DNA of 22,545 nt from Nitrosopumilales archaeon (GTDB taxonomy: Archaea > Thermoproteota > Nitrososphaeria > Nitrososphaerales > Nitrososphaeraceae): contig JBIQJB010000031.1 of assembly GCA_044507735.1 (NCBI GenBank), positions 1 to 22,545 of the forward strand, written 5' to 3'. This document shows, in pieces, positions 1-4,674 of this stretch (position 1 is the stretch's first letter; every line of letters begins with the position of its first letter). Position numbers and translations under genes: made by a program. The notes under the pieces are model-generated. The model made no database searches. It worked only from the letters and a program-made list of their open reading frames with translations, and was not told where the DNA came from.

Positions 1-1111
1 CCTATAGAATATAGATAAGAGTAACGTGGCTACAAAGTGCTATCATTGCAAGATAATTGGATTGACCAATGTCAAGCAGGAAGCACTTACTCAGGAATAC
101 GACAACCTGCAGCACTATCTTCAGACCAGAGAAGATAAGGGGCCGTATTCAGCCATCAAGCAGCAGGCAGACAGGTTCTACAAGACAATCAAAACTGGCA
201 AGAAATACCCCCTCTCAATACGCAACGACTTGCTGAAGATAGAAAAGAACTCCAACACAATTGCTCAATACTGGTGTAGAATACCAGTAAAGGCGATCAG
301 AGGCGGGATATGGGTTGGTATCAAACCATACGAACCGATACCAAGCGATGCAAAAATCTGCGAATCCAAACTCTACTTCAAAAACAAGAAGTGGTGGTTG
401 GACATCGTCGTGACAAAGGACGTTCCTGAGAATACTGAATACCAGAACGTGTTGGCAATCGACATGGGAATCAAGCACATAGCCTGTTCTGTGGACATGG
501 CTAGTGGCAAGACTGTTTTCTATGGCAACGACCTGAACCGTGTCAGAGGGCACTACTTCTGGTTGAGAAGAAAATTAGGCATGAAGAAAGCAATAGACAC
601 CATCAAAAAGATAGGTGACCGTGAGAAGAGGATCGTCAACGACATAATACACAAGATAAGCAGAGACATTGTCAATCAAGCAGTCGAAACAAACGCTGTG
701 ATAATACTCGGCAACATCAAGTATCTGAGAAAGAGGCGACAGAAGCAATACAGGAGAAGGATGGCAAGGCTACTAGCTGGCTTTCCATACTACAAGCTGA
801 TGCAATACATTCGGTACAAGGCGGCACTTGCAGGCATCAAGGTAATCGAGGTATCGGAAGCGTGGACTAGCCAGACTTGCCACATGTGTGGTGAAAGAGG
901 TCAACGAAAGACGCAAGGATTGTTTGAGTGCAACTGCTGTGGTGTACGAGAAGACGCAGACAGAAACGCTGCTTTCAACATCGCCAAACGAGGCTTGGGG
1001 TATTGCTCCAAGCTAGGGGTAGTTGTGAACCTGCCCGTAACCGTTGCTAGGGTAGACAGGAACCCGATGATGACAATGGAGGCTATCGGTCTATGACCGA
1101 TAGTAGTTCAC
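1..1111 (+). mobile_element. IS200/IS605-family element carrying tnpB; left end is upstream of the window, right end is at 1111
   Basis: Perfect subterminal hairpin CTATCGGTC-tat-GACCGATAG (1083-1103), preceded by GAGG and followed by ...GTTCAC. Identity with the second copy stops exactly after TCAC (1111 and 3353). No tnpA in the window. Confidence 0.88.
26..1096 (+). CDS. tnpB: RNA-guided endonuclease TnpB (IS200/IS605 family), 356 aa, rearranged RuvC-II site
   Basis: RuvC-I LAIDMG (D146), HKISRDIV helix, YKAALAGIKV, VSEAWTSQTC, zinc finger CHMC...CNCC, RuvC-III DADRNAAFNI (D312). The canonical RuvC-II Glu position is G229 (IILGNI). GTG start. Confidence 0.95.
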   Translation: MATKCYHCKIIGLTNVKQEALTQEYDNLQHYLQTREDKGPYSAIKQQADRFYKTIKTGKKYPLSIRNDLLKIEKNSNTIAQYWCRIPVKAIRGGIWVGIKPYEPIPSDAKICESKLYFKNKKWWLDIVVTKDVPENTEYQNVLAIDMGIKHIACSVDMASGKTVFYGNDLNRVRGHYFWLRRKLGMKKAIDTIKKIGDREKRIVNDIIHKISRDIVNQAVETNAVIILGNIKYLRKRRQKQYRRRMARLLAGFPYYKLMQYIRYKAALAGIKVIEVSEAWTSQTCHMCGERGQRKTQGLFECNCCGVREDADRNAAFNIAKRGLGYCSKLGVVVNLPVTVARVDRNPMMTMEAIGL

Positions 1112-1131
1112 CATTTGTAGTGGATGAAGAA
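985..1131 (+). ncRNA. TnpB omegaRNA (reRNA) scaffold overlapping the tnpB 3' end, plus guide from the right flank (from 1112)
   Basis: Stems GCTTGGGG/CTCCAAGC (993-1013), GGGTAG/CTGCCC (1017-1036), CCGTTG/CAATGG and the terminal hairpin. Loop GTGAAC (1025-1030) is complementary to terminal GTTCAC (pseudoknot). 5' end and guide length are approximate. Confidence 0.8.
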
Positions 1132-1302
1132 TTTCTCACCGACATGTGGCTCCATACTTTTGAAGGAACGCCACTGGACACGTATGAGAACAAGTACTTT
1201 TGGGAAGTAAGAGTGATAACATCAACAGAATTTGGGCAGAGAGGGTTTCATTATTGGGTGGATGCAGATTCTGGCGAGTTTCTTAAAGAACTACAAGACT
1301 GA
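1112..1302 (+). pseudogene. C-terminal remnant of a PepSY-like surface protein gene interrupted by the IS
   Basis: YFWEVRV...HYWVDADSGEFL resembles the YAVDAVSGEII and HLVDAETGRVV motifs of the 5350 and 6843 proteins. The ORF-track start at 1093 is inside the IS right end. Confidence 0.65.
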
Positions 1303-1533
1303 ATGGCGTAAAGGCTGGAAAAGGCTCAAGAGCAGCTGGCTGCTTCTATCTCAAACGTAGATTCCAAAACAATAAGCATGGCGCCATTGGATTTCACTCG
1401 GAAGCAAGAAAAATCATTCTGGCCGGACAATTTCGTGAGGGTAGATTTCTTTCTTAACGTGCCTGGAATTGTCGTCGCTGTCTACTTCTCTGTACAATGC
1501 GAATCCAGCCGGGGAATCTTTGCTATGTTATTG

Positions 1534-2589
1534 TCATTCTATGCGCACAAGGCTTGCCAGTATCTTGTCTGATGGTATCTTTTGCTCGACGCCTGCAGCA
1601 ATCGCCGCAAGGTTCCTGATCTCAAATGCCATCAGCTTGATGGATGCGAGAAGGTTTGCAACCGTAAAGACAGTGCGGTACGAGTTCATTATGCGCCTGA
1701 GCGACTCTTTCTCAAATGCCGCCTCGAGTTGCATTATGGCATCGATGTCGTTTGCAGCGCTGCGGGGGATCAGCTCCTTGTATGCGGTGCCTGCTAGCTC
1801 GCCAATCGCCTCCTGTATCTTTTCTGTGTTTATCATGCGCTGGAGCACGTCTTTTGAAACCTTGCCGGTGGTGACTATCAAGTCGCTCACTTCTGCAGGG
1901 CTCAGACCCCAGAACTTGCCGCGGAGGACTGCAAGTACATTGTATGCATCAACGTCGACCGAGACAACCTTGGTCGTGTCCTGAAGCTTGGATTCAAAGG
2001 CTACTGCCCTGTCAAGCGACTTGTAAAAGGCATGATCAAGAAAAGTGTCAAACACACGCACGTCGCCCTTTTCCTTGTATGCTTGGGCGGCCTTGCGGGC
2101 GTCTTCGCCAAATTCGCTTCCTGCAAGTGAGTTGATTGCTTCGTCAAAATCCTTGGCCACTAGAGCCTTGACGACCAGATCTCTGCGTCCCACCAGCTCT
2201 TCTGCCCTCAAGTTTACTTTTGGCAGCAGCTCTTCATAGGTCCTGCCCAGGGCCTTACCCTTCAGGATGATCTTCAAGTTCCATGTGATGTATCTGACAA
2301 AATAGGCGCTGAGTATTGCCGAGCCGTTTGCGATGTTGACTATTTTTGCGTGCTGGTTGACAAGGTGTTCACGCAGCGCCGACTCGACCTTTTCCGCAGT
2401 ATATGGCTTGGTTAGTTTTGCAAGAGCGTCAAGATAAACAGTGTTTTTCATTCTGGTAACGAGCTCGTCCACATCTCTGGACTCTGCCAGAGTCTGGAAC
2501 TCGGTCCTGGATAGCATCTTGCCTCTCAGGCTGTGGGCAAGAACGGTACCGAATATCTTGTTTGGCAGGCTGACCTTGTTAGTGTTCAA
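1534..2589 (-). CDS. atpC: A/V-type ATP synthase subunit C (AC39 family)
   Basis: 351 aa helical protein with SLRGKMLSR, WNLKIILKGK, LDHAFY, VDAYNVLAVLRGK and EIRNLAAIAAG, typical of subunit C. TTG start, with a TATA-like TTTATAAA about 25 nt upstream. Confidence 0.9.
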   Translation of the reverse strand: MNTNKVSLPNKIFGTVLAHSLRGKMLSRTEFQTLAESRDVDELVTRMKNTVYLDALAKLTKPYTAEKVESALREHLVNQHAKIVNIANGSAILSAYFVRYITWNLKIILKGKALGRTYEELLPKVNLRAEELVGRRDLVVKALVAKDFDEAINSLAGSEFGEDARKAAQAYKEKGDVRVFDTFLDHAFYKSLDRAVAFESKLQDTTKVVSVDVDAYNVLAVLRGKFWGLSPAEVSDLIVTTGKVSKDVLQRMINTEKIQEAIGELAGTAYKELIPRSAANDIDAIMQLEAAFEKESLRRIMNSYRTVFTVANLLASIKLMAFEIRNLAAIAAGVEQKIPSDKILASLVRIE

Positions 2590-2671
2590 GCTGCACTCAG
2601 TTCCTCTGGTACTTTATAAAAACTATCCTTAATCTTCTACAGATGGTATCAACCCCTTCTTGAACCTTTGG

Positions 2672-2985
2672 CTACGTTTTGCCCCATCCATCTCTTCTTC
2701 TTGCAGCTATTATGCTGCTGGACAACGCTATCGAAACTCCAGCAGTGACTATTGACAGAGAACCAGCAAATTCCGGTATTGCGGTGGTGCCTACAATCTC
2801 TATTGTGTCTGCCCTTTCATGTGGCATTGATATAGAGATCGAGGTGAGGTTCTCGTTGACTGGATTGCCGTAATAGCGCGGACTATAATCGATGTCATAC
2901 ACACGGTGCTGTCCATCAAGAAACACACTGTATGGTCCGCCCAGCATCTCTTTTGGAAATGTGACTGTAAATTCAGCTGCTTTAT
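2672..2985 (-). pseudogene. C-terminal fragment of a PEFG-CTERM-like surface protein, cut by the 2986-3353 element
   Basis: TVTFPKEMLGGPYSVFLDG...IEIVGTTAIPEF followed by a TM helix and basic tail. The apparent N-terminus of ORF 2672..3244 reads through the mobile element. Confidence 0.75.
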
Positions 2986-3353
2986 AGTGAAATTTGGCGA
3001 GAAGACCACTGGACTTGTCCAGTGGATGAATCGCTGCAGTATTTTTAAAAAGCTGGATGTATACCAAGTGTAGGATGAAGCGACGTCTGTGGCGCTCGCT
3101 GACATTGCACAGGAACCAAGCTGAGTAGTGCGGTCGCCGACAATACAGCGACAGGGCGAGTGACATGGTTAGAAGTAGCCCAACCAGGTCTGAGGCTATA
3201 TGTCTCAGATAGGGGTCGAGCGGCATCCTGTAATTCCTCCGCAAGGGAGAATAGACAGGGAAACCAGTGAACCGACCCAGAACTGCTGCTAGGGTAGACA
3301 GGAACCCGATGATGACAGCAGAGGCTATCGGTCTATGACCGATAGTAGTTCAC
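2986..3353 (+). mobile_element. Non-autonomous IS200/IS605 derivative (368 bp) with left end, promoter, omegaRNA and right end
   Basis: Left-end hairpin CCACTGGAC-tt-GTCCAGTGG (3006-3025) starts 20 nt after TTAT (2982-2985). 3267-3353 matches 1025-1111 at 78/87 nt, with an identical right-end hairpin and TCAC terminus. No tnpA or tnpB ORF inside. Confidence 0.88.
3042..3051 (+). promoter_or_regulatory. Putative TATA box inside the non-autonomous element
   Basis: TTTTTAAAAA just after the left-end hairpin. Predicted start near 3070-3076, just before the structured region. Confidence 0.5.
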
Positions 3354-3373
3354 AGGCACGCTCGATTTAGCCG
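3075..3373 (+). ncRNA. Stand-alone expanded omegaRNA-like RNA with guide AGGCACGCTCGATTTAGCCG (from 3354)
   Basis: Same four stems and pseudoknot as 985-1111, with compensatory substitutions. Extra stem-loop at 3219-3266 and extra 5' stems at 3079-3186. Transcript ends are inferred. Confidence 0.7.
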
Positions 3374-3573: not shown

Positions 3574-4674
3574 ATGACATTAGTTATCAAAAGCATCAAT
3601 GGTATTTCATACTATTACTACCAAGATAGGGTAAAGACTACCGGCAAAGGAAGGGCTAGAACTATAAGCACCTTTGTAGGCAGGACTGACCTTAATCCCC
3701 AGGATCTTGCTGCAGCACAAAGAATTGCTTTGGACAGGCATATTGTCAAATTGTTCAAGGCTGCATCTCTGATCAAAGATCAAGGATATCATTTTGAAAC
3801 ATGGCAATATACTCAAGAGGATCTAGATGCTTTCGAATTCGTGAAGGTAATCTATCAGATAGTCAAGAATCAGATCCAGCAAGATGAATTGATGGAATAC
3901 GAAAAGATGTTCTATAATAGGTATGTCTATGGGACCACCGCCATAGAAGGAAATATGTTAAGTGAGCAGGAAACTGCCAAAGTACTTGAAACTGGTCTGA
4001 CAGTGGAAAATAGACCTCTGTCTGATACTATTGCGGTAGCAAACTACAATGATGTAAAGAAATTCATGAAGGATTACTCTGCAGGTGTATCTGAGAATAT
4101 GATAAAGACGGTTCACACCATTTTGATGAAAGGAATGAAGGGTGATGATGGATTACCTATACCGCTTGGTGAATACAGAAAGAATCGTTCAAGGATCCAC
4201 GGACTAGGTTATACTCCACCGCCTCCAGAAGCTATTTCAGAACATATGAGGTACTTGCTTGCCGAATATGATGATCGTATTAGGAGAAAAGTGCATCCTG
4301 TAGAGGCTGCGGTAATCTTCCATCAAAAACTTGAAGAGATACACCCATTCAAGGACGGGAATGGTCGCACTGGACGGGAGATACTAAACTTCATGCTGCA
4401 GAAGGCCGGGTATCCGCCGATTTACATAACACCTAAGGAGCGTAAGAACTATATCGATGCTTTAGAGCAAGGCAATAGTCAAAACTATTCTCCTCTTATG
4501 ACTTTTGTAGCGACTAGGATGGCTGCTACGCTATGGTATATGTTCTCGCGAACAAAGATATTCGACGTTGCAACTGAGGCTCTATCTAAAGTCGCTGCCA
4601 GTCCAAATGAGCACGGCATAAAGAAAGTATTAGAGCGACTGGCAAACTATCATTCGTCGCCTGATCTTCCTTAA
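3574..4674 (+). CDS. Fic family protein (AMPylase-type, with an intramolecular inhibitory motif)
   Basis: Intact HPFKDGNGRTGR Fic motif. TTAIEGN is an (S/T)xxxE(G/N) inhibitory helix N-terminal to the core. TTTAAATA at 3543-3550. Confidence 0.93.
   Translation: MTLVIKSINGISYYYYQDRVKTTGKGRARTISTFVGRTDLNPQDLAAAQRIALDRHIVKLFKAASLIKDQGYHFETWQYTQEDLDAFEFVKVIYQIVKNQIQQDELMEYEKMFYNRYVYGTTAIEGNMLSEQETAKVLETGLTVENRPLSDTIAVANYNDVKKFMKDYSAGVSENMIKTVHTILMKGMKGDDGLPIPLGEYRKNRSRIHGLGYTPPPPEAISEHMRYLLAEYDDRIRRKVHPVEAAVIFHQKLEEIHPFKDGNGRTGREILNFMLQKAGYPPIYITPKERKNYIDALEQGNSQNYSPLMTFVATRMAATLWYMFSRTKIFDVATEALSKVAASPNEHGIKKVLERLANYHSSPDLP

What the first reader, a model, noticed from the sequence alone, without database searches (positions are those of the whole stretch)
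993..3353. Stem-by-stem covariation between the two omegaRNA copies defines the fold and a pseudoknot
Copy 1 versus copy 2: GCTTGGGG/CTCCAAGC versus TCTGAGGC/GTCTCAGA (both 8 bp, 5-nt loop), GGGTAG/CTGCCC versus GGGTCG/CGACCC, and CCGTTG/CAATGG versus CTGCTG/CAGCAG. Seven of the nine differences in the 87-nt shared block fall in these stems and keep pairing. Loop GTGAAC and terminal GTTCAC are invariant and complementary. This points to selection on RNA structure, with copy 2 more perfectly paired than the copy that also encodes protein.
Basis: seen in the sequence. Interest (0 to 1): 0.8.

Follow-up and report, generated by a model that had tools for sequence, protein, structure and literature searches.

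The report
TnpB guide RNA and orphan mini-copy
The two repeats are guide-RNA (omegaRNA) scaffolds of an archaeal IS200/IS605 transposon, one at the end of its tnpB nuclease gene and one in a gene-less miniature copy, and their stems and pseudoknot are real but of a known kind.

Summary
Copy 1 (992-1111) is the omegaRNA and right end of a 1557-bp IS200/IS605 element. That element has a Y1 tnpA (on an adjoining contig) and a 356-aa tnpB (26-1096). Copy 2 (3187-3353) is the omegaRNA of a 367-bp tnpB-less mini-element (2987-3353) with its own left-end hairpin. Both elements sit 3' of TTATA.

Between the copies, 16 of 40 stem nucleotides differ and all 20 pairs survive.

A covariance model found 75 homologues in related Nitrososphaeraceae-type genomes:
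- 92% of pair cells are paired, against 37-44% in slid controls.
- 35 of 35 pairs show compensatory changes.
- Structure-blind MAFFT alignments agree.

The pseudoknot (loop GTGAAC with terminal GTTCAC) switches as a unit to GTGAAT/ATTCAC, CTGACAT/ATGTCAG and TTGACTA/TAGTCAA in other lineages. It has the same topology as the ISDra2 omegaRNA pseudoknot.

This type was never found next to tnpB (0 of 11, 0 of 10 and 0 of 24). It still covaries within its own lineage.

The verdict is a new member of a known kind, PATE-like elements that carry omegaRNAs. No RNA data were available.

The parts
26..1096 (+). tnpB, 356 aa, GTG start, TGA stop at 1094-1096 inside the loop of stem 4. It is complete.
   Evidence: Pfam Cas12f1-like_TNB scores 76.7 bits (cut-off 26.3). 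OrfB_IS605 scores 25.6 bits, below its cut-off of 30.5. The closest homologue is 355 aa with the same start. PDB TnpB and Cas12f hits reach E 1e-19. RuvC-I D, RuvC-III D and the zinc finger are present. The canonical RuvC-II Glu is replaced by Gly.
1..1111 (+). The part of a 1557-bp IS200/IS605 element that lies in the window. Its left end and a divergent Y1 tnpA lie on contig C34, which overlaps window 1-55.
   Evidence: Window 1-55 is the reverse complement of C34 1-55 at 100%. PF01797 scores 126 bits at C34:91-450. Contigs of other runs run through the join.
992..1111 (+). omegaRNA scaffold, copy 1. Stem 1 is 992-1000/1006-1014. Stem 2 is 1017-1022/1031-1036. Stem 3 is 1041-1046/1074-1079, with an inner stem at 1050-1053/1062-1065. 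Stem 4, the right-end hairpin, is 1082-1090/1096-1104.
   Evidence: (138.5 bits).
1025..1030 (+). Pseudoknot 5' strand GTGAAC, in the stem-2 loop of copy 1. It pairs with 1106-1111.
1106..1111 (+). Pseudoknot 3' strand GTTCAC. These are the last 6 nt of the element, just before the guide.
1112..1131 (+). Inferred guide of copy 1. This is flanking host DNA, the 3' part of an interrupted PepSY-domain gene.
   Evidence: The element boundary comes from loose ends before 1114 in runs X2, X4 and X16 and from the continuous frame after in-silico excision. No second match longer than 13 nt exists in the genome.
2982..2986 (+). TTATA, the inferred target/TAM directly 5' of the mini-element.
   Evidence: TTATA precedes the left end in 10 of 10 elements inspected.
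2987..3353 (+). tnpB-less PATE-like mini-element of 367 bp. It has a left end with hairpin 3006-3025, a central conserved stretch, and the omegaRNA/right end.
   Evidence: It aligns end to end with 5 relatives from 3 genomes, and the flanks are unrelated. There is no TnpB homology in the 1400 nt upstream. Its left-end core is 94% identical over 32 nt to the full element's left end.
3187..3353 (+). omegaRNA scaffold, copy 2. Stem 1 is 3188-3196/3202-3210. Stem 2 is 3213-3218/3273-3278. Stem 3 is 3283-3288/3316-3321, with an inner stem at 3292-3295/3304-3307. Stem 4 is 3324-3332/3338-3346. The pseudoknot is 3267-3272 with 3348-3353.
   Evidence: (113.5 bits).
3219..3266 (+). Expansion segment in the stem-2 loop, 5' of the pseudoknot strand. 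It is a hairpin of variable length with conserved flanks (ACGGCATCC ... GGGAAACC).
   Evidence: It is seen only in tnpB-less copies.
3354..3373 (+). Inferred guide of copy 2 (flanking DNA).
   Evidence: The right boundary is shared by all copies. No second match longer than 12-16 nt exists in the genome.

Best explanation
Both repeats are omegaRNA scaffolds of one family of IS200/IS605 elements in an ammonia-oxidising-archaeon-type genome. Its relatives are titled Nitrososphaera or Nitrososphaeraceae.

Copy 1 is the right end of an autonomous 1557-bp element with this layout:
- TTATA target, then a left-end hairpin
- a Y1 tnpA, divergently transcribed
- a 356-aa tnpB
- the omegaRNA/right end, finishing in GTTCAC

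The RNA is read on the tnpB sense strand and overlaps the last ~35 codons of tnpB. It folds into four stems plus an H-type pseudoknot. In the pseudoknot, the last six scaffold nucleotides pair with the loop of stem 2. The scaffold then continues into about 16-20 nt of flanking DNA that serve as the guide.

By analogy with ISDra2 and Geobacillus TnpB, the TnpB-omegaRNA complex would cut the vacated donor joint (TTATA + guide) after TnpA excision. Repair from a sister copy would then restore the element.

Stem 4 doubles as the TnpA-recognised right-end DNA hairpin.

Copy 2 is the same scaffold in a 367-bp element that kept the left and right ends but has no gene. It belongs to a separate tnpB-less lineage marked by an extra hairpin in the stem-2 loop. 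This lineage presumably borrows TnpA and TnpB in trans.

Shown here:
- the anatomy and the element boundaries
- covariation of all stems
- pseudoknot haplotype switching
- absence of tnpB next to long-insert copies
- continued covariation inside that lineage

Inferred, not shown:
- transcription
- TnpB binding
- TTATA acting as the TAM
- cleavage, and action in trans
For: Pairwise: 16 of 40 stem nt differ and 20 of 20 pairs are kept. None of 200,000 random trials did this.

Family-wide covariation:
- The covariance model R1 found 75 matches in 72 loci.
- 92.0% of cells are paired, against 37-44% in slid controls.
- 35 of 35 pairs have compensatory changes. The covariation score is 0.526 against 0.05-0.07.

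Structure-blind MAFFT alignments:
- 89.2% paired against 35-50%, with 23 of 27 pairs compensatory
- 95.6% paired against 33-43%, with 19 of 41 pairs compensatory

Strand: G.U outnumbers A.C by 327 to 68, which points to the tnpB sense strand.

Pseudoknot:
- 45 of 75 rows have at least 6 contiguous Watson-Crick pairs between loop and tail. With shuffled tails the figure is 1.7%.
- There are four complementary haplotypes.
- ISDra2 forms its pseudoknot between -6..-2 and -102..-106 (PMC10097598).

Element anatomy:
- TnpA.
- Contig join.
- Contigs from three runs carry the left-flank sequence directly before position 1114.
- The host frame is continuous after in-silico excision.
- TTATA precedes 10 of 10 left ends.

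Mini-element:
- Full-length alignment.
- No tnpB nearby: 0 of 11, 0 of 10, 0 of 24.
- Within the tnpB-less lineage, 92.4% of cells are paired against 31-53%, and 28 of 35 pairs are compensatory.

Precedent: PATEs 'often encode omegaRNAs' that TnpB would act on in trans (PMC10055086, passages read).
Against: - No RNA evidence exists. No listed run is on record as RNA, so transcription, RNA ends and processing are all unshown.
- A5 and A10 are fitted to the model's structure and lean towards it. Related sequences also inflate the shuffle controls.
- Inside the main lineage the pseudoknot is almost invariant. There is one clean double change (L013) and about ten G.U changes. Its support therefore rests mostly on divergent subfamilies that MAFFT could not put in register.
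- GTTCAC may also be held constant as the TnpA cleavage motif at the right end.
- 30 of 75 rows lack a 6-bp Watson-Crick pseudoknot. These are G.U variants, decayed copies, and low-scoring hits to other tnpB families.
- The TnpB lacks the canonical RuvC-II glutamate. Activity depends on an alternative glutamate that I did not verify.
- Each element is single-copy in this genome.
- The mini-element is fixed in all four runs laid. No contig skips it, so its mobility here is unshown.
- One relative with five mini-copies (G147, 92% complete) showed only a frameshifted cognate tnpB.
Confidence: 0.85

Rival explanations
1. Copy 2 is an inert relic. The mini-element family is or was active, but this copy is fixed and no longer transcribed or used. 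Its intact pairing would then only reflect recent descent.
For: There is one copy in the genome. It is present with only a few SNPs in all four runs laid, with no empty site. Its guide has no other target. No RNA data exist. Its insertion site shows a truncated neighbouring gene, not a clean insertion.
Against: All 35 model pairs are intact in copy 2 (31 Watson-Crick + 4 G.U). That is the best value in its group, although it is 76-88% diverged from its nearest relatives. An intact cognate tnpB and tnpA sit 2 kb away.
Confidence: 0.25
2. The conserved hairpins act as single-stranded DNA structures for the TnpA transposase, not as RNA.
For: Stem 4 resembles the left-end hairpins. It lies where IS200/IS605 right-end hairpins lie. 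GTTCAC is at the cleavage boundary.
Against: By established IS200/IS605 knowledge (recalled), TnpA needs only the subterminal hairpin and the cleavage motif. Stems 1-3 and the pseudoknot lie up to 120-167 nt inside the element. They covary and show the RNA-type G.U excess of 327 to 68. The overall layout matches solved omegaRNAs.
Confidence: 0.05
3. The covariation is a by-product of protein-coding constraint on the TnpB C-terminal tail.
For: In copy 1 and its relatives, stems 1-3 and half of stem 4 lie inside the ORF. The tail peptide is conserved.
Against: The same pairs covary in 35 distinct gene-less copies. Paired double changes are not what codon constraint predicts. In ISDra2 the overlapped tail is reported as non-essential (passage).
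Confidence: 0.03
4. This is a domesticated, nuclease-dead TnpB (TldR-like) whose guide RNAs regulate host genes.
For: The canonical RuvC-II Glu is absent. Copy 2 sits upstream of a Fic gene.
Against: - Transposon ends, tnpA and an interrupted host gene are all present.
- Insertion sites differ between genomes.
- The guides match nothing else in the genome.
- Glu-to-Gly at RuvC-II is a described rearranged, presumably active, configuration (PMC10691335).
Confidence: 0.03

Closest known systems
ISDra2 TnpB omegaRNA (Deinococcus radiodurans; PDB 8H1J, 8EXA, 8BF8)
   Same: - It is sense-strand RNA that overlaps the 3' end of tnpB and runs to the right end.
- It has a multi-stem scaffold.
- The nucleotides just 5' of the guide pair with a distant upstream segment to form a pseudoknot.
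- The guide is flanking DNA.
- It has a 5-nt T-rich TAM on the left flank (TTGAT there, TTATA inferred here).
   Different: - There is no detectable sequence or Rfam similarity.
- The protein match is only E 3.5e-10.
- Here the 5' pseudoknot strand lies in a hairpin loop and forms 6 Watson-Crick pairs.
- The TnpB is shorter, 356 aa against 408 aa.
- The TnpB has Gly at the canonical RuvC-II Glu.
- The host is an archaeon.
PATE-like non-autonomous IS200/IS605 elements carrying omegaRNAs (Geobacillus stearothermophilus; Meers et al., PMC10055086)
   Same: It is a gene-less element that keeps the left and right ends and an omegaRNA. It shares its end sequences with an autonomous element in the same genome. 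It is presumed to use TnpA and TnpB in trans.
   Different: - The lineage is archaeal.
- It carries a lineage-specific expansion hairpin in the scaffold.
- It is single-copy in this genome but multi-copy in relatives.
- Its structure is shown here to covary after gene loss. I did not see that analysis in the passages read.
TnpB clades with a rearranged RuvC-II site, Glu replaced by Gly (Altae-Tran et al. 2023, PMC10691335)
   Same: Gly sits at the canonical Glu position. The RuvC-I and RuvC-III Asp residues and the zinc finger are conserved. Archaeal representation is reported in the paper.
   Different: I could not place this protein in a named branch. I also could not confirm the compensating Glu. 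A conserved Glu in the motif SEAWTSQ is only a candidate.
Archaeal sotRNAs of IS1341-type tnpB genes (Halobacterium). Recalled, not read here.
   Same: These are sense-overlapping transcripts at the 3' end of archaeal tnpB genes.
   Different: They belong to a different archaeal phylum. No comparison was made here.

Membership tests
TnpB-associated omegaRNA (OMEGA system) | Lies on the tnpB sense strand, overlaps the ORF's 3' end and ends at the transposon's right boundary | tested here: met
   Copy 1 spans 992-1111, the ORF stop is at 1094-1096, and the boundary is at 1111. In 13 of 75 homologues a TnpB-like frame of at least 320 aa ends inside the RNA.
TnpB-associated omegaRNA (OMEGA system) | Conserved secondary structure supported by covariation | tested here: met
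   R-scape itself was not available.
TnpB-associated omegaRNA (OMEGA system) | Pseudoknot formed by the last scaffold nucleotides before the guide | tested here: met
   There are four complementary haplotypes, and 45 of 75 rows have at least 6 bp. The reference architecture was read.
TnpB-associated omegaRNA (OMEGA system) | Expressed, bound by TnpB, and directs TAM-dependent DNA cleavage | not testable with these tools
   No RNA run is listed.
Rfam-curated RNA families | Match to any of the 4227 Rfam 15 models | tested here: not met
   There were 0 matches at gathering score over the window. Nothing fell on either copy at E up to 10.
TnpB (RuvC-type RNA-guided nuclease) | Domain signature and catalytic D-E-D triad plus zinc finger | tested here: inconclusive
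   The TNB domain passes its cut-off. OrfB_IS605 falls below its cut-off. RuvC-I D, RuvC-III D and CxxC...CxxC are present. The canonical Glu is Gly. A rearranged site is known, but the alternative Glu was not verified.
IS200/IS605 insertion sequence | Y1 (HUH) TnpA, subterminal hairpins at both ends, and insertion 3' of a conserved short motif | tested here: met
   PF01797 scores above its cut-off. TTATA precedes 10 of 10 left ends. Absence of a target duplication was not formally tested.
PATE / non-autonomous IS200/IS605 derivative | Left and right ends present, no ORF, several copies with unrelated flanks | tested here: met
   One search shows 6 full-length copies with unrelated flanks. Searches show no tnpB. 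It is single-copy in this genome. Mobilisation in trans is not testable.
TldR-like domesticated TnpB | No transposon ends, fixed locus, and a guide matching a host promoter | tested here: not met
   Ends and tnpA are present. The insertion site differs in the relative L041. The guides have no second target.

The most novel reading that the evidence does not exclude
The long-insert scaffolds define a widespread family of guide-RNA-only hitch-hikers in soil Nitrososphaeraceae. After losing tnpB they have stayed under purifying selection for a TnpB-competent fold: stems 1-4 plus the pseudoknot. They have also gained a lineage-specific expansion hairpin next to the pseudoknot strand. That would make them hyperparasites that compete with autonomous elements for TnpB, with the expansion tuning that competition or stabilising the RNA.
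Probability: 0.4. Interest if true: 0.5.

Novelty: new member of a known kind. Interest (0 to 1): 0.3.

Why it matters
- It adds a well-supported omegaRNA family that Rfam lacks, from ammonia-oxidising-archaeon-type genomes. It is paired with a very compact 356-aa TnpB that has a rearranged RuvC-II site and an inferred TTATA TAM. This could interest people mining small RNA-guided nucleases.
- It gives a clean natural experiment. Gene-less copies keep the whole RNA fold, which argues that the fold is selected for RNA function and not for coding.
- It does not change the current picture of how TnpB systems work.

Tried and rejected
- **RNA evidence.** The look-up of sequencing runs listed no RNA holder, so nothing can be said on expression.
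- **Empty site for the mini-element.**
  - No contig in the four runs laid skips 2987-3353.
  - G147 synteny ends at the ATPase gene.
  - The G223 orthologue of the neighbouring PEF-CTERM gene loses homology at the element's left boundary. The window's right flank does not continue that gene. No clean pre-insertion site was found.
- **Putting the divergent pseudoknot subfamily in register.** MAFFT misplaced it. Those rows therefore count as 'not paired', or as spurious U.G. I used a script that searches the loop and tail directly instead.
- **Structure of the expansion segment.** RNAalifold pairs its conserved flanks, but no pair there changes on both sides, so this is inconclusive.
- **Second targets for the guides.** Only 12-13-nt exact matches and one 16-nt alignment with a mismatch were found, all near E 0.5-2.
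- **Earlier notes of this scan.** None exist for this genome.
- **Not attempted.** Structure prediction and complex prediction. The tools return no coordinates, so they could not locate the alternative catalytic Glu.
- **Literature.** The search for TnpB with Nitrososphaera or Thaumarchaeota listed no paper holding both terms among the 10 shown (listing only).
- **Supplements.** Supplements of the papers cited were not seen. These include the branch tables of PMC10691335 and the extended data of PMC10055086. They may already list this clade or similar PATEs.

Full report
**Observation**

The 87-nt blocks 1025-1111 and 3267-3353 differ at 9 positions. Seven are in stems 2 and 3, and two are linker bases. 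By hypergeometric test, P = 1.5e-4.

Over the three named stems, 16 of 40 nucleotides differ and all 20 pairs remain standard in both copies. None of 200,000 random placements of 16 substitutions achieved this. Seven pairs changed on both sides. Independent MFE folds recover the same stems.

Two things were not in the finding. Copy 2 has a 48-nt insertion (3219-3266) in the stem-2 loop. A fourth hairpin, identical in both copies, precedes the terminal GTTCAC.

**What copy 1 belongs to**

ORF 26-1096 is a TnpB.
- Pfam Cas12f1-like_TNB scores 76.7 bits. OrfB_IS605 scores 25.6 bits, below its cut-off.
- The best PDB matches are TnpB and Cas12f chains, down to E 1.2e-19. ISDra2 TnpB matches at 3.5e-10.
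- It is complete. The nearest homologue is 355 aa with the same GTG start.

The window begins at a contig end. Its first 55 bases are the exact reverse complement of the start of contig C34. C34 carries a Y1 transposase (PF01797, 126 bits), transcribed divergently from tnpB. After the transposase comes a left-end hairpin, preceded by TTTTATA. Contigs from other public runs run straight through this join. The element is 1557 bp.

In three runs (X2, X4, X16), a contig carries sequence about 85% like the left flank directly before window position 1114 (loose ends). This is an uninterrupted version of the site in a related strain. Removing the element in silico leaves one continuous reading frame for a PepSY-domain protein.

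The element therefore ends at GTTCAC (1111). The sequence from 1112 onward is host DNA, which is the position of an omegaRNA guide.

**What copy 2 belongs to**

There is no TnpB homology in the 1400 nt upstream of copy 2. In the protein search of the genome, only the 27 codons shared with copy 1 match.

Window 2987-3353 aligns end to end with five elements from three related genomes. The flanks are unrelated. Each of the six has:
- TTATA
- a left-end hairpin (3006-3025 here)
- a conserved central stretch
- the scaffold with the insertion

The left-end core is 94% identical over 32 nt to the full element's left end. It is 86-88% identical to the left ends of a different tnpB-only element in another relative.

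This is a PATE-like non-autonomous derivative. Meers et al. describe such elements and note that they 'often encode omegaRNAs' that TnpB must act on in trans (PMC10055086, passages read).

TTATA precedes the left end in 10 of 10 elements inspected. I infer that it is the target and the TAM.

**Larger alignment**

BLAST in 201 genomes of the family found matches in 18, counting the window's own genome.

I aligned 14 tnpB-linked scaffolds with MAFFT. RNAalifold on that alignment gave 35 pairs, 18 of them with compensatory changes. The resulting covariance model R1 matched 19 of 151 genomes. It also matched 75 places in the 72 loci I collected.

| Alignment | Rows | Cells paired | Slid controls | Pairs with changes on both sides |
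|---|---|---|---|---|
| A5, model-fitted | 75 | 92.0% | 37-44% | 35 of 35 |
| A6, MAFFT, 3' block, rows of at least 40 bits | 59 of 75 | 89.2% | 35-50% | 23 of 27 |
| A4, MAFFT, 14 sequences, pseudoknot added | 14 | 95.6% | 33-43% | 19 of 41 |

On A5 the covariation score is 0.526, against 0.05-0.07 in the slid controls. A fitted alignment leans towards its own structure, which is why I ran the two structure-blind alignments as well.

G.U cells outnumber A.C cells by 327 to 68. This is expected for RNA read on the tnpB sense strand.

One A5 row (L055) comes from a genome flagged unpublished (G035). Nothing depends on it.

**Pseudoknot**

In the main lineage the two hexamers are nearly invariant.
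- There is one clean double change, GTGAAT/ATTCAC in L013.
- There are about ten A-to-G changes that give G.U.

A divergent subfamily found by the same model has different pairings.
- Six loci have CTGACAT/ATGTCAG, and a seventh (L084) has the 6-bp form.
- L053 has TTGACTA/TAGTCAA. L085 has the same with one mismatch.

MAFFT could not put these in register. In one search they therefore appear as unpaired.

A direct search of loop against tail gave at least 6 contiguous Watson-Crick pairs in 45 of 75 rows. With shuffled tails the figure is 1.7%. The other 30 rows are G.U variants, decayed copies, and weak hits to other tnpB families.

The topology is that of the solved ISDra2 omegaRNA. There, -6..-2 pair with -102..-106, and the authors state that the pseudoknot is conserved among Cas12 guide RNAs (PMC10097598).

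One caution applies. GTTCAC is also the right-end cleavage boundary, so TnpA may contribute to its constancy. This is an inference.

**The tnpB-less lineage**

The insertion-bearing scaffold was never found next to tnpB.
- 0 of 11 copies in the family loci. Three of these had less than 400 nt of upstream sequence.
- 0 of 10 matches in a pattern scan of one genome per species. All 9 stretches are titled Nitrososphaera, Nitrososphaeraceae, Thermoproteota or Ca. Nitrosopolaris.
- 0 of 24 metagenome contigs. Only 10 of these had at least 1 kb of upstream sequence.

Among 37 model matches from loci chosen for that motif (35 distinct), 92.4% of cells pair. Slid controls give 31-53%. Twenty-eight of 35 pairs show compensatory changes. 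One or two of the 37 may be ordinary short-type copies on the same contigs.

Many of these copies have lost the inner part of stem 3.

The claim that the non-coding copy pairs better holds only for this pair, at 31+4 against 29+6 of 35. Other gene-less copies score 24-29 Watson-Crick pairs.

**Mechanism**

The mechanism is inferred from ISDra2 and Geobacillus work.
1. TnpA excises the single-stranded element.
2. TnpB loaded with the element's own RNA cuts TTATA + guide at the vacated site.
3. Recombination restores the copy.

The mini-element would need both proteins in trans. The cognate genes lie 2 kb away. Neither guide has another target in the genome, which fits homing and not regulation.

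The TnpB has Gly where RuvC-II normally has Glu. Altae-Tran et al. describe large clades with exactly this replacement and propose a compensating Glu (PMC10691335). Yoon et al. also describe shifted glutamates. I did not verify the compensating residue.

**Verdict**

The feature is a new family member of a well-known kind. No Rfam model covers it. A literature search listed no paper joining TnpB with Nitrososphaera (listing only).

Noticed in passing
window 1096-1302 (+) and contig C34: The IS interrupts a PepSY-domain membrane protein gene. The frame is continuous once the element is removed in silico. Contigs from three public runs carry an uninterrupted, slightly diverged version of the site.
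   Followed up: yes
window 2672-2986 (-): This ORF has a PEF-CTERM-like C-terminus and lacks its N-terminal half. Homology to the orthologue in G223 (locus L106) stops at the mini-element's left boundary, and the window's right flank does not continue the gene. The G223 orthologue itself is split at a run of A.
   Followed up: partly
window 26-1096 (TnpB residues around IILGN): The canonical RuvC-II glutamate is Gly in all nine close relatives aligned. The next residue is N, D, E or K. A conserved Glu in SEAWTSQ (8 of 9) is a candidate replacement.
   Followed up: partly
window 1091-1096 and homologues: The tnpB stop codon sits in the loop of the right-end hairpin: TGA in CTATG-A here, and TAA in the TTTTAAT loops of relatives. 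One hairpin thus serves the protein end, the RNA scaffold and the transposon end.
   Followed up: partly
L043, L060 (G041), L050 (G074), L023 (G055), L055 (G035, unpublished): Five right ends in four genomes are followed by the same sequence after GTTCAC (TCCTGG...). Two of them are solo right ends. This could be a shared target, a nested repeat or a fixed guide. It remains unexplained.
   Followed up: no
L062, L028, L035, L090, L098 (G147): The loop of the inner stem is expanded by GTA/GTG triplet repeats of varying number (for example GGTGGTGGTAGTAGTAGTAG).
   Followed up: no
G000:C37:14442-14558 (-) and G000:C19:15320-15411 (-): These are two further weak model matches in the window's own genome (31 and 24 bits). 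The second lies at the end of a 493-aa TnpB-like frame. They are probably other omegaRNA families that share the right-end hairpin and GTTCAC.
   Followed up: partly
window 1314 onward: Contigs of three runs diverge from the window just after the PepSY gene (loose ends behind 1314). This points to structural variation between strains.
   Followed up: no
window 3574-4674 (+): A Fic/DOC-family gene lies 220 nt downstream of the mini-element's right end.
   Followed up: no
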